Source: Candidatus Omnitrophota bacterium
GTDB taxonomy: Bacteria; Omnitrophota; Gorgyraeia; Gygaellales; Profunditerraquicolaceae
Direction of reading: 5' to 3'
Assembly: GCA_020058085.1 (NCBI GenBank)
Contig: JAGVER010000007.1
Span: 71,969-135,968, forward strand
DNA length: 64,000 nt
The notes beneath the pieces are model-generated. The model searched no databases and was not told the DNA's origin. It saw only the letters and a list, made by a program, of their open reading frames with translations. A program made the position numbers and the translations under genes. The first letter of the stretch is position 1, and the number at the start of each line of letters is the position of its first letter. Of the stretch, positions 23,175-35,797 are shown piece by piece.

Positions 23175-24278
23175 ATGGCACAGGTAAGTTTAAACAAAAT
23201 ATCCAAGATCTATCCTGGGAATGTAAAAGCGGTAGATAGTATTAACTTAGGAATAGAAAATAAGGAGTTTATGGTTTTAGTCGGGCCTTCCGGATGCGGA
23301 AAGTCAACTACTCTTAGGATGGTTGCAGGTTTGGAAGAGTCGAGTTCAGGGGACATCTATATAGGCGACAAAAGAGTAAATGATGTTCCGGCAAAAGACC
23401 GGGATATCGCTATGGTCTTCCAAAATTATGCTTTATATCCCCACATGACTGTTTTTGAGAATATGTCTTTTGGGCTAAGGTTAAGGCATATACCTAAATC
23501 AGAGATTCTTCAGCGTGTAAATGAAGCAGCGGATATATTAGGGATTAAACGTCTTTTGAATCGTAAACCGCGTGAGCTTTCCGGAGGAGAGAGGCAGCGT
23601 GTGGCGGTAGGCAGGGCTATTGTAAGGAAGCCGATGGTATTTTTGTTTGACGAACCACTAAGTAACTTGGATGCCAAGATGCGTGTTCAAATGCGCACTG
23701 AAATACATAAATTGCATATCAAGCTACAGACAACGATAATCTATGTAACTCATGATCAGATAGAAGCTATGACCATGGGAGATAGGATTGCAGTAATGAA
23801 AGATGGCCTCCTGCAGCAGGTCGCTGATCCTATAACCGTATATGATCATCCTAAGAATAAATTCGTTGCTGGTTTTATAGGTTCTCCTCCTATGAATTTT
23901 ATGCGTGGTAAGATTGTTAAAAAAGAGAGCCGCCTTTATTTTGACGAAGGGAAGGTCTATGTAAAATTAGTTGATGACATGCGCCAGAAATTGTCCGCTT
24001 ACGTAGACAAAGAGATAATCTTCGGTATACGTTCCGAAGATATTTACGATAAGCTCTTTGTTTCTGAAGCTCCTCCTGAGAATGTAGTAAAGGTTAATTG
24101 CGAAGTCTATGAGCCTATGGGGTCAGAAGTTTACCTCTACTTAAATACCGGTAAGCATACTTTTATTGCTCGTGTAGGCGCGCATAATCGTCCCAAGGTT
24201 AACCAAGAGATGGACCTGGTTTTTGATATGAGTAAGGTACACTTTTTTGATAAGGATAGCGAAGAGACTATCATATAG
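23175..24278 (+). CDS. ABC transporter ATP-binding protein, MalK/UgpC/MsmX-like
   Basis: GPSGCGKSTTLR, LSGGERQR, FLFDEPLSNLD and a C-terminal regulatory/TOBE-like extension. No adjacent permease genes. Confidence 0.85.
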   Translation: MAQVSLNKISKIYPGNVKAVDSINLGIENKEFMVLVGPSGCGKSTTLRMVAGLEESSSGDIYIGDKRVNDVPAKDRDIAMVFQNYALYPHMTVFENMSFGLRLRHIPKSEILQRVNEAADILGIKRLLNRKPRELSGGERQRVAVGRAIVRKPMVFLFDEPLSNLDAKMRVQMRTEIHKLHIKLQTTIIYVTHDQIEAMTMGDRIAVMKDGLLQQVADPITVYDHPKNKFVAGFIGSPPMNFMRGKIVKKESRLYFDEGKVYVKLVDDMRQKLSAYVDKEIIFGIRSEDIYDKLFVSEAPPENVVKVNCEVYEPMGSEVYLYLNTGKHTFIARVGAHNRPKVNQEMDLVFDMSKVHFFDKDSEETII

Positions 24279-24295: not shown

Positions 24296-24586
24296 TACTG
24301 AGTCATCAGCAAATAATGGTCACATTGGCTGAGCTGATTTTGGAGCGAGACAAGGAACGAAGACGCAGGCGTAATCTTGCATTACGCCAAGGACGAGTGA
24401 CGCAGTCAGAGCCCAAAATCAGCCAGCCCATAGATAATATAGAATTAGGGGGGAGCCCGCCTTTCGGCCGTCTGCGGCGTTGCTCCTCCTTGGCGTAGTA
24501 CTAAAGACTACGCCTGCGTCGTCGCGCCTTGCATACGGCCTAAATGCGGGCTCCCAATATGCCCATTATTTGCTGATGACTCAGTA
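24296..24586. repeat. 291-bp GC-rich element closed by perfect 24-bp inverted repeats; candidate structured ncRNA or MITE
   Basis: TACTGAGTCATCAGCAAATAATGG (24296-24319) is the exact reverse complement of 24563-24586. Inside are nested helices 24327-24343/24413-24428, 24368-24375/24381-24388, 24451-24460/24546-24555, 24466-24471/24535-24540 and 24492-24499/24507-24514. Confidence 0.5.
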
Positions 24587-25885
24587 ATGCCTACCTTTTT
24601 GGGAAAGTCACCCTTCCTGAGGGTAATTTTTGCTCTTATTCTTATTCTACTGGTATACTTTATTCTCCCCGTATATTTAGCTAAAATCTTAAGTCTTAAG
24701 CCATTCAAGCCGCTGTTTCTGTTTTATCTTATTAATATCTTTATTCTTCTCTACTTTTCCAGAAAAAGCTTTCTAAGAAGCTATGATCTTCAATTGCGCA
24801 TACAAGGGTTTCAGGAAAAGATAAACATTCTTAATGCGGAATATTCGCAAGAGATAAAGAAGAGCATCGCACTTCTAGAGAAAAGTATGCGTTATAATAG
24901 TCTTGGGAATATCCTTAAAGAGATTAACTCAAGTCTTGAACTAGATTCTGTAGCCGAGATTCTGACTTCAGAGGTATTTTCACTGATAGGTAAGAATAAA
25001 GGAGTCTGCGTTTTGTATCTGATTGATAACCAGACACAGAAGCTAGTTCTTTTTAAAACAAAAAAAGGGGACAAAGGTTTGGTTATCAAAACTAAAGAAG
25101 GCAATACCCTTGACTTCTGGGTCTTAAGGCATGCAAGTCCGCTCTTAGTCGAGGATATTAAAAACGATTTTCGTTTTGACCTAGATAAGTTGTTGGCTTT
25201 AGATGCAAGGCCGGTAGCGTCATTAATTAGTTCGCCTTTCTTAAGCGAAAATAAACAGTTAGGTATTTTAAGGCTGGATAGCGAGATACCTGGAGCTTAT
25301 TCGCAGGATGACTTGAGATTTCTAGCTTCTATTTCAGATTTAGGAGCAGTAGCTATTGAAAATAGCGAACTTTTTAAGAGGGCTCAAGATCTAGCGATAC
25401 ATGATGTTTTAACCGGGCTCTATACAAAAGTTTATTTTATGGAACGCTTTAAGGAGGAATGTAAAAGAGCCCTTTCTCAAAAGACTCCGCTTTCTTTATT
25501 GATGCTGGATATAGATTTCTTTAAGAATTATAATGATCAATTCGGGCATACTGCCGGCGATATCGTACTAAAAAAATTAAGCCAAATTATAACTAAAACG
25601 CTGGCGAGCCTGCATCCTCTTATAAGCCGTTTTGGCGGAGAGGAATTTTGTATTGCTATAACCGGTAAAGATAAAAAAGAGGCATATAAAATCGGGGATT
25701 ATTTGCGTAGAGAGATAGAGAATGAAAAAGTAATTTTGCGTCGAAGCGAGACGCATATAACTACTTCAGTGGGTTTAGCTAGCTTGCCTGTTGACGCCTT
25801 AGATGATGAGGATCTTATTCGTAAAGCAGATAAGGCGATGTATGAAGCAAAACAGAAGGGAAGAAATCAAGTATGTTCTTTTTGA
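24587..25885 (+). CDS. membrane-anchored GAF-GGDEF diguanylate cyclase
   Basis: N-terminal TM segments, a GAF-like middle region and a GGDEF domain with RFGGEEFCIA. Confidence 0.8.
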   Translation: MPTFLGKSPFLRVIFALILILLVYFILPVYLAKILSLKPFKPLFLFYLINIFILLYFSRKSFLRSYDLQLRIQGFQEKINILNAEYSQEIKKSIALLEKSMRYNSLGNILKEINSSLELDSVAEILTSEVFSLIGKNKGVCVLYLIDNQTQKLVLFKTKKGDKGLVIKTKEGNTLDFWVLRHASPLLVEDIKNDFRFDLDKLLALDARPVASLISSPFLSENKQLGILRLDSEIPGAYSQDDLRFLASISDLGAVAIENSELFKRAQDLAIHDVLTGLYTKVYFMERFKEECKRALSQKTPLSLLMLDIDFFKNYNDQFGHTAGDIVLKKLSQIITKTLASLHPLISRFGGEEFCIAITGKDKKEAYKIGDYLRREIENEKVILRRSETHITTSVGLASLPVDALDDEDLIRKADKAMYEAKQKGRNQVCSF

Positions 25886-26868
25886 GTACGTTAATCCTCT
25901 TGACCTTAGTTTCGTATTTCTTGGTTAAAGTAGCCATGGCTAAGATCGGCCCTAAAAAAGAAGAGGATCTTGGGAACTTAAAATCCGAATACGACAATCT
26001 TTATCTTAAGAACCAGAGCTTAAAAGAAGAAAATTCTCTATTAGACGGAAAGGTTACTCAAACATTAGGGCTCTATAATATATCTAAAGATATGTCTAAA
26101 GAGCTTGACGAAAATAAAATCTTTCATATTTTTAAGGAGCGCATAAATGATTATGTTAAGATAGGATGTTGCAATTTTCTGGTGAAGGGAGCTGATCTTA
26201 AGCGATATGAAGGCTATATTAATTTTCCTCTAGTTATAAATAATGAAATAGCAGGGCATCTTATTGCTAGGGATATCGCGGAAAATGATAAGTACCGGTT
26301 CCAAATTTTAGCCCAGCAATTTCTGATTATGGTTAAAAGGGCTTTTCTTTATAAGAATATACAGGAATTAGCGATTATGGATGGATTGACTCAAGTTTTT
26401 AGCCGCAGACATTTCTTAGAGAGGTTTAAGGAAGAGCTTAGGCGCTCCCGGAAGTTTAAGCATAATTTCTCCTTCCTGATGCTTGATATAGATAAGTTTA
26501 AGAATTTTAACGATAAATATGGGCATTTAGTAGGAGATGCTGTATTGAGAGAGGCATCTAAGACAGTAAAGGAGAATGTAAGGCAGATAGATTTTGTGGG
26601 CAGGTATGGCGGAGAGGAGCTTTCTATAATTCTGCCTGAAACAGATAAAGAACAAGCACTTCTTGCCGCCGAGCGTATACGTCAGGCGATTGAAAAAAGG
26701 GAGATCAAGGTTTATGATGAAGAGCTCAAAGTAACTGTGAGCGTAGGTATATCTACTTTTCCTGATGATGCCGATGACTCAAGTCTTCTTATTGAAGCAG
26801 CGGATAAGGCTCTTTACTTGGCTAAAAATGAAGGTAGAAACAGGGTTTGTGCTTACCGCCGTAAATAA
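25873..26868 (+). CDS. GGDEF-domain protein (GGEEL variant)
   Basis: DIDKFKNFNDKYGHLVGD and RYGGEELSIILP. It overlaps the upstream gene by 13 nt. Confidence 0.8.
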   Translation: MFFLSTLILLTLVSYFLVKVAMAKIGPKKEEDLGNLKSEYDNLYLKNQSLKEENSLLDGKVTQTLGLYNISKDMSKELDENKIFHIFKERINDYVKIGCCNFLVKGADLKRYEGYINFPLVINNEIAGHLIARDIAENDKYRFQILAQQFLIMVKRAFLYKNIQELAIMDGLTQVFSRRHFLERFKEELRRSRKFKHNFSFLMLDIDKFKNFNDKYGHLVGDAVLREASKTVKENVRQIDFVGRYGGEELSIILPETDKEQALLAAERIRQAIEKREIKVYDEELKVTVSVGISTFPDDADDSSLLIEAADKALYLAKNEGRNRVCAYRRK

Positions 26869-35356: not shown

Positions 35357-35429
35357 GCTGGAGTAGCTCAGTTGGCAGAGCACGTCCTTGGTAAGGACGG
35401 GGTCACGAGTTCAATTCTCGTCTCCAGCT
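35357..35429 (+). tRNA. tRNA-Thr (anticodon GGU)
   Basis: Acceptor GCTGGAG/CTCCAGC, D-arm AGCTCAGTTGGCAGAGC, anticodon loop CTTGGTAAG and T-arm GGTTCAATTC-like GAGTTCAATTCTC. Confidence 0.9.
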
Positions 35430-35726: not shown

Positions 35727-35797
35727 AGGGGCGTCGGTTAATGGCAAACCAACGGTCTCCAAAACCGTGACTGCAGGTTCAAGTCCTGCCGCTCCTG
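35727..35797 (+). tRNA. tRNA-Trp (anticodon CCA)
   Basis: Acceptor AGGGGCG/CGCTCCT (one G-T pair), anticodon stem-loop ACGGTCTCCAAAACCGT and T-arm CAGGTTCAAGTCCTG. It occupies the usual position before secE. Confidence 0.85.

What the first reader, a model, noticed from the sequence alone, without database searches (positions are those of the whole stretch)
24296..24586. 291-bp GC-rich element with a perfect 24-bp closing stem and two internally nested arms, abutting a GGDEF gene start
Seen: the terminal arms TACTGAGTCATCAGCAAATAATGG / CCATTATTTGCTGATGACTCAGTA are exact reverse complements. Arm 1 is GGCTGAGCTGATTTTGG (24327-24343) paired to CCAAAATCAGCCAGCC (24413-24428) with one bulged A, capped by GGCGTAAT-CTTGC-ATTACGCC. 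Arm 2 is GGGAGCCCGC (24451-24460) paired to GCGGGCTCCC (24546-24555). It encloses GGCCGT/ACGGCC, a GCGGCG/CGTCGC helix with one G-T pair, and GGCGTAGT-ACTAAAG-ACTACGCC. The segment is visibly far more GC-rich than its surroundings. The ATG of the downstream diguanylate cyclase (24587) follows the 3' arm with no room for a free SD. Inference: it is either a structured ncRNA/5' leader controlling the GGDEF gene, or a MITE (a possible TA duplication flanks a CTGAGTC... terminus) whose insertion created the present gene start.
Basis: partly seen in the sequence, partly recalled or inferred. Interest (0 to 1): 0.6.

Follow-up and report, generated by a model that had tools for sequence, protein, structure and literature searches.

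The report
Mobile hairpin element before start codons
The 291-bp GC-rich segment is one copy of an undescribed family of small mobile palindromic elements of Candidatus Omnitrophota that sit just before start codons inside operons and seem built to pass ribosomes on to the next gene. It is not a regulator specific to the GGDEF gene.

Summary

It is not a GGDEF-specific leader. A metagenome scan found 110 loci (80 fetched, 68 non-redundant full copies of 286-331 bp, 78-99% identical to each other). All lie in the sense orientation between co-directional genes of unrelated function, including rplR, rplQ, atpD, secA, dnaG and cmk. Close relatives with the same gene order lack it: MalK stop and GGDEF ATG are 20 nt apart. 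So it is an insertion, and the GGDEF N-terminus is native.

Copies cluster by genome rather than by locus, at least 9 loci in one subfamily, and no transposase is linked. Covariation supports a three-way junction, not the long hairpin of the energy minimum.

In 50 of 64 loci the host start codon lies -3 to +6 nt from the element's 3' end. Upstream genes often end at stop codons in its 5' arm.

A conserved ATG at element position 21 opens an 88-89-codon frame. In 41 of 68 copies it ends at the terminal TA+N stop next to the host ATG. The variable linker avoids stops in that frame only (8 vs 76 and 75), yet the peptide is not conserved.

Best reading: a MITE-like element with a translational-coupling relay, as proposed for mycobacterial MIRUs. 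The window copy is out of phase and predicted to bury the GGDEF ribosome-binding region. How it moves is unknown.

The parts
24296..24586 (+). Whole element (291 bp). It is one copy of a 286-331 bp family, and homology to other copies starts and stops exactly here.
24296..24326 (+). P1 5' arm (the first 24 nt pair perfectly in this copy). It carries stop codons TGA 24299-24301, TAA 24314-24316 and, just inside P2, TGA 24330-24332. It also carries the conserved ATG at element position 21-23 (24316-24318).
24556..24586 (+). P1 3' arm. In other copies it often holds GGAG(G) 7 nt from the element end; here it reads GATGA. It ends in TA, directly followed by the GGDEF ATG (TAATG).
24327..24428 (+). 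Arm 1. P2 is 24327-24343 with 24413-24428 (bulged A at 24332). The purine-rich, nearly invariant strands 24344-24367 and 24389-24412 can form a helix with tandem G.A pairs. The P3 cap is 24368-75 with 24381-88, loop CTTGC.
24429..24450 (+). AT-rich linker at the junction. It is the most variable part of the family and avoids stop codons only in the frame set by the ATG at position 21.
24451..24555 (+). Arm 2. P4 is 24451-60 with 24546-55, and P5 is 24466-71 with 24535-40. The pyrimidine-rich, nearly invariant strands are 24472-91 (contains CTCCTCC) and 24515-34. The P6 cap is 24492-99 with 24507-14.
24316..24498 (+). Relay ORF of this copy: ATG to TAG, 60 codons. It is truncated because this copy is 291 nt (5 nt more than the 286-nt base form), so it does not reach the 3' arm.
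23175..24278 (+). Upstream host gene, an ABC-transporter ATPase (MalK-like). Its stop lies 17 nt before the element.
24587..25885 (+). Downstream host gene, a GAF-GGDEF diguanylate cyclase (432 aa) with a native N-terminus. The 20 nt before its ATG are predicted to be fully paired.

Best explanation
The segment is a copy of a non-autonomous, MITE-like palindromic insertion element specific to Candidatus Omnitrophota. In this lineage it was inserted 0-1 nt before the native start codon of the GGDEF gene.

Shown:
- The family is dispersed, shows insertion polymorphism and forms genome-specific subfamilies.
- Copies are always co-oriented with the flanking genes and sit at gene junctions just 5' of start codons.
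- The single strand folds as a three-way junction: a closing stem of about 31 bp and two arms.
- A reading frame starts at a conserved ATG in the 5' arm. It is kept open and in phase up to a stop made by the terminal TA plus the next base, next to the host ATG. The peptide itself is not conserved.

Inferred:
- The element is transcribed as part of the host operon mRNA.
- Ribosomes finishing the upstream gene, often at stop codons supplied by the 5' arm, open the closing stem and re-initiate at the element's AUG.
- They then translate through and unfold the element, terminate at UAA(UG) and re-initiate on the host gene. In about 40% of copies a GGAG in the 3' arm would help this step.
- Such a relay would cancel the polar effect of a 290-nt structured insertion. 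It would explain why only sense copies next to start codons survive, even in essential operons.

The window copy is 291 nt and out of phase: its frame stops at 24496-98. Here the closing stem is predicted to occlude the GGDEF ribosome-binding region. The enzyme and mechanism that move the element are unknown.
For: Family and mobility
- The scan found 110 loci; 80 were fetched, each with one copy, 81-92% identical to the window copy.
- Empty sites exist at the window's own junction (L082, L083) and at tyrA-cmk (L088, L089).
- A solo 5' arm is fused to the lepA ATG in L066.
- Paralogous copies within a genome or sample are 94-98% identical, against 83-90% for the same locus in different genomes.
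- No recurrent flanking gene was found.

Position
- The host start lies -3 to +6 nt from the 3' end in 50 of 64 loci.
- The adjacent downstream long ORF is on the + strand in every locus examined.
- Upstream ORFs end at element positions 6, 17 or 37, which are three different frames. TyrA in L027 ends with 4-5 element-encoded residues (...RERL-LRLR*).
- The native SD is stranded to the left of the element in 18 of 68 loci, against 12% of control windows.
- Downstream genes are diverse and include housekeeping genes.

Structure
- The three-way junction gives 94.3% paired cells, 31 pairs changed on both sides, and a covariation score of 0.133 against 0.066 for shuffles and at most 0.051 for slid controls.
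- Variation in P2 is not compensated in the long hairpin.
- The two apical pairs of each cap are paired in 65 of 67 copies, with 3-4 Watson-Crick types each.

ORF
- ATG at position 21-23 in 64 of 68 copies; length = 1 mod 3 in 54 of 68; the frame ends exactly at the terminal stop in 41 of 68; it reaches the 3' arm or beyond in 57 of 68.
- 13 of 22 indel patterns keep the phase, 11 of them through compensating indels in different regions.
- Linker stops: 8 in the ATG frame against 76 and 75 in the other two, P = 4e-18.
- Variable sites by codon position are 30/26/28.
- Gene callers produced about 100 clusters of this ORF, most of them 88-90 aa.

Window copy and precedent
- P(unpaired) for positions -20 to -1 is 0.006, against 0.40 in the empty orthologue.
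- Precedent: MIRUs insert at start codons with a coupled ORF (PMC12548453).
Against: - There are no expression, ribosome-profiling or end-mapping data, so translation and coupling are inferred from sequence alone.
- The loci were retrieved with a translated query and ranked by tblastn. This favours copies that keep that frame, and 30 of the 110 hits were not seen.
- Arm 1 strands are T-poor and arm 2 strands are A-poor, so stop codons are rare there in any frame. One antisense frame is also often open.
- Copies are related, so the counts are not independent events.
- The G.U versus A.C count does not favour the + strand (97 vs 133). The selected structure could therefore be single-stranded DNA rather than RNA.
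- The near-invariance of four 20-25-nt arm strands is not explained by a relay ORF.
- No autonomous partner, transposase or clean target-site duplication was found.
- The window copy itself lacks the intact relay.
Confidence: 0.6

Rival explanations
1. An ordinary DNA transposon derivative (for example an IS630/Tc1-like MITE with TA duplication) with no RNA- or translation-level adaptation. On this reading the conserved arms are transposase-binding sites, the stems reflect hairpin DNA intermediates or arm-to-arm repair, and position and orientation are merely what purifying selection leaves in a gene-dense genome.
For: - Terminal inverted repeats of 24-33 bp, with TA at both ends in 47 of 68 copies.
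- Four copies of a roughly 20-bp motif, two direct and two inverted, are the most conserved parts, as with subterminal binding sites.
- Genome-specific subfamilies.
- The strand test does not favour RNA.
- Bacterial MITEs often have TA ends and open frames (PMC2229807).
Against: - Both orientations would offer the same terminal arms, yet every locus examined is sense.
- Avoidance of linker stops in one frame only, and compensating indels, are hard to obtain without translation.
- The terminal T..A covaries as a pair rather than as a direct repeat.
- No transposase was found in 523 kb of flanks.
Confidence: 0.2
2. A functional structured RNA with a job of its own, either acting in trans or as a general cis module (for example an RNase III processing or stability element released from operon transcripts). 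On this reading the RNA has been spread or domesticated, and the ORF is secondary.
For: - Strong covariation in four helices alongside nearly invariant 'loop' strands, a pattern typical of functional RNAs.
- Tandem G.A motifs, one flanking pair of which covaries (G-C to A-U in 8 copies).
- A closing duplex of about 31 bp, long enough to be an RNase III substrate (own knowledge).
- At shared loci, element identity (83-90%) exceeds that of the flanking coding DNA (68-81%).
Against: - No Rfam family matches.
- Presence or absence varies between close relatives.
- Copies resemble their genomic paralogues more than their positional orthologues, so the conservation is better explained by recent spread or conversion.
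- No own promoter or terminator signal stands out.
- Copy number varies.
Confidence: 0.15
3. A dedicated riboswitch or leader regulating the GGDEF gene.
For: It lies directly upstream of the GGDEF ATG and buries the ribosome-binding region.
Against: - Orthologous GGDEF loci lack it.
- Only this 1 of the 68 copies precedes a GGDEF gene, and the downstream genes examined are functionally unrelated.
Confidence: 0.01
4. A real small protein gene of 88-89 aa.
For: Gene callers predict it in about 100 clusters, and the frame is preserved.
Against: - Segments of the peptide are frame-shifted between subfamilies while the nucleotides stay the same.
- There is no third-position excess (30/26/28).
- There is no Pfam domain.
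- The nucleotide-level palindrome and covariation dominate.
Confidence: 0.03

Closest known systems
Mycobacterial interspersed repetitive units (MIRUs; Supply et al. 1997, as summarised in PMC12548453)
   Same: [quoted passage not shown] Both carry an internal ORF whose end overlaps the host start, so the insertion has minimal effect on expression.
   Different: MIRUs are 46-101 bp units in tandem arrays (sizes from own knowledge) and are coupled at -4 nt. This element is a single 286-331 bp palindrome with long terminal inverted repeats and a three-way-junction fold, coupled at about -1 to +5 nt, in a different phylum. No sequence comparison with MIRUs was made.
Correia / CREE / NEMIS elements of Neisseria
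   Same: Both are small non-autonomous elements with terminal inverted repeats of about 24-26 bp and TA at the ends. Both are co-transcribed with neighbouring genes as long hairpins, and no autonomous partner is known (PMC2229807 and PMC2649163).
   Different: Correia elements are 100-155 bp, number in the hundreds per genome, occur in both orientations, and carry IHF sites and outward promoters. They have no relay ORF in phase with the host start. The Omnitrophota element is twice as long, low in copy number and strictly sense.
ERIC/IRU, YPAL and Rickettsia palindromic elements (RPE)
   Same: All are palindromic repeats that are transcribed, sometimes translated, and tolerated inside transcription units. 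Their open frames can fuse to host ORFs.
   Different: RPEs insert in frame inside genes and become part of the protein. ERIC and YPAL affect mRNA stability in an orientation-dependent way. None is reported to sit systematically at the SD-ATG spacer with its own start and an overlapping stop.
Synthetic bicistronic designs (short leader ORF that delivers ribosomes past structure)
   Same: The logic is the same: a throw-away ORF ending at the start codon removes the effect of repressive secondary structure (PMC12548453).
   Different: The synthetic designs are engineered, are not mobile and are not palindromes.

Membership tests
Bacterial MITE | Small size (below about 500 bp) with no transposase of its own | tested here: met
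   Copies are 286-331 bp. The only ORF is the non-conserved 88-89-codon frame.
Bacterial MITE | Terminal inverted repeats | tested here: met
   24 bp perfect in the window and about 31 bp in the family.
Bacterial MITE | Several dispersed copies per genome and insertion polymorphism | tested here: met
   Two copies lie on one 133-kb contig, and at least 9 loci belong to one 94-98% subfamily. Empty sites are L082, L083, L088 and L089.
Bacterial MITE | Target-site duplication | tested here: inconclusive
   TA..TA at the ends in 47 of 68 copies, but the ends covary as a base pair. The three empty/filled comparisons do not reduce to one clean TA.
Bacterial MITE | A related autonomous IS with the same ends | tested here: inconclusive
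   None was seen in the window or in 523 kb of flanks.
MIRU-type coupled intercistronic repeat | Sense orientation between genes of an operon, at the start codon | tested here: met
   50 of 64 loci lie within -3 to +6 nt of the start, and every locus examined is sense.
MIRU-type coupled intercistronic repeat | Internal ORF whose stop overlaps or abuts the host start | tested here: met
   41 of 68 end exactly at the terminal stop and 57 of 68 reach the 3' arm. This is not met by the window copy.
MIRU-type coupled intercistronic repeat | Short (46-101 bp) units in tandem arrays; mycobacterial sequence family | tested here: not met
   Each locus holds a single copy of about 290 bp and no second copy or fragment, tandem or dispersed. 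The host is Omnitrophota. So it works like a MIRU but is not a member.
Riboswitch / gene-specific leader | Conserved association with one gene family or pathway | tested here: not met
   Downstream genes are diverse and orthologous GGDEF loci lack it.
Any Rfam 15 family | Score at or above the gathering threshold | tested here: not met
   Only two tRNAs were found elsewhere in the window. In the region, the only hits are far below their gathering thresholds.
Retron ncRNA / integron attC | Adjacent reverse transcriptase, or cassette arrays with an integrase | tested here: not met
   No gene family recurs in the flanks and each locus holds one copy, so there are no arrays. RT and integrase domains were not searched for specifically.
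Protein-coding gene | Purifying selection on the amino-acid sequence | tested here: not met
   Segments are frame-shifted between subfamilies and variable sites by codon position are 30/26/28.

The most novel reading that the evidence does not exclude
The invariant purine-rich and pyrimidine-rich arm strands, the tandem G.A helix and the strict sense orientation may mean that the RNA itself is the active entity. It could be a host-transcribed, ribosome-unfolded structured RNA that mediates its own spread (an RNA intermediate, or an RNA that guides a recombinase). Alternatively it could have been domesticated as a portable operon connector that also serves as a recombination joint, since synteny breaks coincide with copies. 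Either would be a new class of mobile structured RNA in an uncultivated phylum.
Probability: 0.12. Interest if true: 0.85.

Novelty: new variant of a known kind. Interest (0 to 1): 0.55.

Why it matters
If the relay reading is right, this is a second, independent and structurally very different case, after the MIRUs, of a mobile element that solves the polarity problem by carrying its own throw-away cistron.

- That cistron ends on the host start codon, which would let the element live inside essential operons such as rpoB-rpoC, rpoA-rplQ and atpG-atpD.
- It would give a natural counterpart of synthetic bicistronic designs.
- It offers a marker of recent genome dynamics in Omnitrophota, and a warning for annotation: gene callers emit about 100 clusters of spurious proteins from this ORF, most of them 88-90 aa, and at least one fusion to cmk.
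- For this window specifically, it predicts that the GGDEF gene is translationally handicapped relative to its orthologues.

Tried and rejected
- **Rfam.** Searches at gathering and permissive thresholds found nothing credible.
- **Single long hairpin.** This is the energy minimum, but it is rejected for the interior. Variation in P2 and the caps is compensated only locally.
- **GGDEF-specific regulator.** Rejected by the empty orthologous sites.
- **Element-created gene start.** Rejected by the orthologue lengths.
- **Strand test.** The G.U versus A.C count was inconclusive.
- **TA target-site duplication.** It could not be settled from three empty/filled comparisons.
- **Longer direct repeats at the junctions.** None was seen.
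- **Extra or decayed copies.** An nhmmer profile search over 523 kb found none except one solo 5' arm.
- **Linked mobilising gene.** None was found.
- **Plasmid and phage collections.** No match.
- **Viral contigs.** Only chance 18-mer hits.
- **Literature.** Searches for an Omnitrophota repeat, or for MITEs with translational coupling, found nothing specific.
- **Exact look-up of the GGDEF protein with its stop codon.** It failed; the identical protein was found later as P0001.
- **The one genome-contig scan.** That was too strict a pattern for a census.

Full report
**1. The observation**

- The 24-nt terminal arms are perfect reverse complements. They are the only two matches in the window even with 3 mismatches allowed, against 0 expected.
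- The two internal arms and their caps are present.
- GC is 52% against 39% for the window, and this is the GC-richest 200 bp of the 64 kb.
- The ATG of a 432-aa GAF-GGDEF gene follows the last base.
- Folding energy is far beyond shuffles on both strands (z = -13 and -14).
- The element is also 71% self-reverse-complementary over its full length.
- No Rfam family matches. There is only one copy in the window.

**2. It belongs to a family**

An exact search with the terminal repeat in one-genome-per-species contigs found a second copy in a Candidatus Omnitrophota MAG. It is 88% identical over 291 aligned positions by blastn (91% mean column identity in the MAFFT alignment with short flanks). 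It lies in a different context, and homology starts and stops exactly at the TA..TA ends.

A pseudo-protein built from one reading frame was then used to scan metagenome contigs. This gave 110 loci, of which 80 were fetched.
- Each locus holds one full or contig-truncated copy, 81-92% identical to the window copy.
- The samples are groundwater, lake and sediment metagenomes.
- After removal of duplicates there are 68 full copies, alignment A3.
- Most are 286 or 289 bp long.
- A profile search of all 523 kb of fetched DNA found no further copies or fragments, apart from one solo arm described in section 9.
- Nothing similar occurs in the plasmid, phage or viral collections.

**3. It is an insertion, not a GGDEF leader**

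- The GGDEF protein has more than 100 Omnitrophota orthologues, most of the same 432-aa length, so the N-terminus is native.
- Two syntenic relatives (DUF1015 - AccD - MalK-type ATPase - GGDEF - GGDEF - ROK - LptD) have GGDEF proteins 87% and 84% identical. In them only 20 nt separate the MalK stop from the GGDEF ATG...gtatccTTATATG... In the window the same stretch reads ...gtatcc[291 nt]ATG....
- A second empty site was found at tyrA-cmk. L088 and L089, whose Cmk is 94% identical to that of the filled locus L066, read TAA-A-ATG.
- In the 30 loci scanned against Pfam, the downstream genes are unrelated in function. They include rplR, rplQ, uppS, dnaG, topA, secA, ftsH, atpD, dxr, ispD and an EPSP-synthase-family gene. 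cmk was identified. A GH1 glycosidase is another example.
- The locus with upstream and downstream ORFs of more than 1100 and more than 1300 codons looks like rpoB-rpoC by size only.

This excludes a riboswitch or a gene-specific leader.

**4. Family dynamics**

- Copies cluster by genome or sample, not by locus. Two loci on one 133-kb contig are 96.5% identical, and a third from the same sample series is 97.9% identical.
- One sediment subfamily occupies at least 9 different loci at 94-98% identity.
- The same locus in different genomes is only 83-90% identical.
- Some pairs of loci share one flank only. L066 has an M48-type peptidase gene where its close relative L088 has tyrA. Synteny therefore breaks at copies.
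- No gene family recurs in the flanks, so the element is non-autonomous.

**5. Structure**

RNAalifold on A3 returns a three-way junction. Counting pairs for that model gives:
- 94.3% of cells paired;
- 31 pairs with changes on both sides;
- a covariation score of 0.133, against 0.066 for shuffles (0 of 500 reach it) and at most 0.051 for slid controls.

The closing stem P1 covaries heavily in its middle (for example A-U 35 / U-A 26, and U-A 30 / C-G 26). Even its terminal pair covaries (CA..TG, AG..CT, AA..TT). This argues that the terminal TA..TA is part of the helix rather than a duplicated target.

In the long-hairpin model the interior helices show almost no double changes, and variation in P2 is left unpaired. 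The two apical pairs of each cap are paired in 65 of 67 copies, with 3-4 Watson-Crick types each.

Diversity is highest in the linker (0.44) and the middle of P1 (0.37-0.42). It is lowest (0.03-0.04) in four strands of 20-25 nt: two purine-rich in arm 1 and two pyrimidine-rich in arm 2.

The arm 1 strands can form a helix with tandem G.A/A.G pairs. One Watson-Crick pair between two such tandems changes from G-C to A-U in 8 copies, though these copies may form one clade.

The count of G.U against A.C mismatches (97 vs 133) does not single out the + strand. The selected structure could therefore be RNA or single-stranded DNA.

**6. Position relative to genes**

- In 50 of 64 loci with a scorable downstream ORF, the start codon (mostly ATG) lies -3 to +6 nt from the element's last base. 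Six more lie at 11-25 nt, and where checked (L018, L038) they have their own SD downstream of the element.
- In the remaining loci the next long ORF is also on the + strand.
- No locus shows a gene starting leftwards from the 5' end.
- Long upstream + strand ORFs frequently run into the element and end at element position 6 (TGA), 17 (TAA) or 37 (TGA), which are three different frames. In L027, TyrA ends with 4-5 element-encoded residues (...RERL-LRLR*).
- SD-like motifs are enriched in the 14 nt to the left of the element: 18 of 68 against 12% of control windows, P = 0.001. So the element often separates the native SD from its ATG, even for rplR.
- 27 of 68 copies carry GGAG(G) in the 3' arm, 7 nt from the end.

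**7. A reading frame that is kept although its peptide is not**

- An ATG at element position 21-23 (AAATAATGG) is present in 64 of 68 copies.
- 54 of 68 copies have a length equal to 1 mod 3, which puts the terminal TA+N codon in the same frame.
- In 41 of 68 copies the frame runs from that ATG, for 88 or 89 codons in 37 of them, exactly to the terminal stop. With an ATG at distance 0 the junction reads TAATG.
- In 57 of 68 copies the frame reaches at least the 3' arm.
- Of 22 indel patterns other than the base form, 13 keep the phase (P = 0.012). Eleven of these do so by compensating indels in different regions, for example +1 in a cap loop together with +2, -1, +5, +11 or +20 in the linker.
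- In the AT-rich, fast-evolving linker, 57 distinct sequences carry 8 stops in the ATG frame against 76 and 75 in the other two, P = 4e-18.
- The encoded peptide is not conserved. Whole segments are read in different frames in different subfamilies, and variable sites are spread evenly over codon positions, 30/26/28.
- On the antisense strand, the frame holding the equivalent ATG has 1.8 internal stops per copy.
- Gene callers have produced about 100 clusters of this ORF, most of them 88-90 aa and none with a Pfam domain. One 309-aa product is a fusion with Cmk.

Caveats:
- Retrieval and ranking used tblastn in this frame, and 30 hits were not seen.
- The arms are T-poor or A-poor, so stops are rare there anyway.
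- Copies are not independent.

The linker test and the compensating indels are the parts least affected by these caveats.

**8. Mechanism proposed**

Shown: a mobile, non-autonomous, sense-only element adjacent to start codons, with a covarying three-way junction and a phase-preserved frame.

Inferred: the element is read as part of the operon mRNA, and the following sequence occurs.
1. Ribosomes ending the upstream gene at or near the 5' arm melt P1 and re-initiate at the AUG at position 21.
2. They translate through the element and so unfold it.
3. They terminate at the UAA next to the host AUG and re-initiate there.

This would neutralise both occlusion of the start region and polarity over 290 untranslated nucleotides. 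It would also explain why only sense copies placed at start codons are seen, including in essential operons.

[quoted passage not shown] 1997). It is also the logic of engineered bicistronic designs. TA ends, long stem-loop transcripts and open frames are common in bacterial MITEs (PMC2229807).

What moves the element is unknown. The four invariant arm strands, two direct and two inverted copies of one motif, could be protein-binding sites or RNA functional sites.

**9. The window copy, and other things seen**

The window copy is 291 nt, with +4 in the linker and +1 in cap 2. Its frame stops at 24496-24498, 88 nt before the GGDEF ATG. MalK ends 17 nt upstream of the element. The relay is therefore broken in this copy.

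The 20 nt before the GGDEF ATG are predicted to be paired: P(unpaired) is 0.006, against 0.40 in the empty orthologue. This predicts reduced or conditional translation of this diguanylate cyclase.

Seen in passing:
- In L066, cmk and lepA are joined by a solo 5' arm: CCTTCT[TACTGAGGCATCAACAAATA]ATGGAC, against CCTTCTTGAACATGGAC in L088. This looks like an internal deletion between the element's own TAATGGACA and the 3' junction. It leaves the element's ATG context serving as the lepA start.
- Other relatives (L084-L087) have an unrelated 144-nt GC-rich palindromic spacer at the very same MalK-GGDEF junction.

**10. Verdict**

The GGDEF-leader one is wrong.
- The family is, as far as the searches went, undescribed. 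It shares its logic with MIRUs and its anatomy with Correia-type MITEs, but it is a member of neither.
- It is a new variant of a known kind, of moderate interest.
- Main open questions: the mobilising activity, whether the selected structure is RNA or DNA, and experimental proof of the relay.

Noticed in passing
L084 2357-2500 (also L085-L087): At the same MalK-GGDEF junction, relatives whose GGDEF protein is 74% identical carry a different, unrelated 144-nt GC-rich spacer with two long hairpins, for example GCAGAAGCGCATACAC.TCGCCC / GGGCGAGTGTATGCTTTCTGC. This junction may be a hot spot for several families of palindromic insertions.
   Followed up: partly
L066 4946-4968: A solo 5' arm of the element (TACTGAGGCATCAACAAATAATG) joins cmk, whose stop is the arm's TGA, to the lepA start codon. 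The close relative L088 has TGAAC there instead. It looks like an internal deletion between the element's TAATGGACA and the 3' junction.
   Followed up: yes
L066 vs L088; L039 vs L049/L068; L047 vs L057/L074; L022 vs L047: Pairs of loci share the gene on only one side of the element. For example, an M48-type peptidase gene replaces tyrA upstream of cmk. Synteny breakpoints therefore coincide with copies, which may mean recombination between dispersed copies.
   Followed up: partly
L060 and L076 (42-nt insert in arm 2), L016 (21-nt insert in arm 1), L063/L064 (20 extra nt in the linker): Some copies carry nested GC-rich or AT-rich insertions. The three insertions other than L076's, counted with the other indels of their copies, keep the length at 1 mod 3.
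   Followed up: partly
P0121 (contig of L066); clusters P0241-P0340: Gene callers annotate the element frame as hypothetical proteins, mostly 88-90 aa. In one case they fuse it to Cmk (309 aa). These are probable annotation artefacts in public protein sets.
   Followed up: yes
window 25873-26868: A second GGDEF-domain gene overlaps the end of the first by 13 nt. The arrangement is conserved in the relatives (L082-L087).
   Followed up: no
window 35357-35429 and 35727-35797: Two tRNA genes. They are the only Rfam matches in the window.
   Followed up: no
window 24247-24274: A promoter-like site (TTGATA-16-TATCAT, 10 of 12 matches) lies inside the end of the MalK-type gene, 22 nt before the element. 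The number of such sites in the region is not significantly above shuffles.
   Followed up: no
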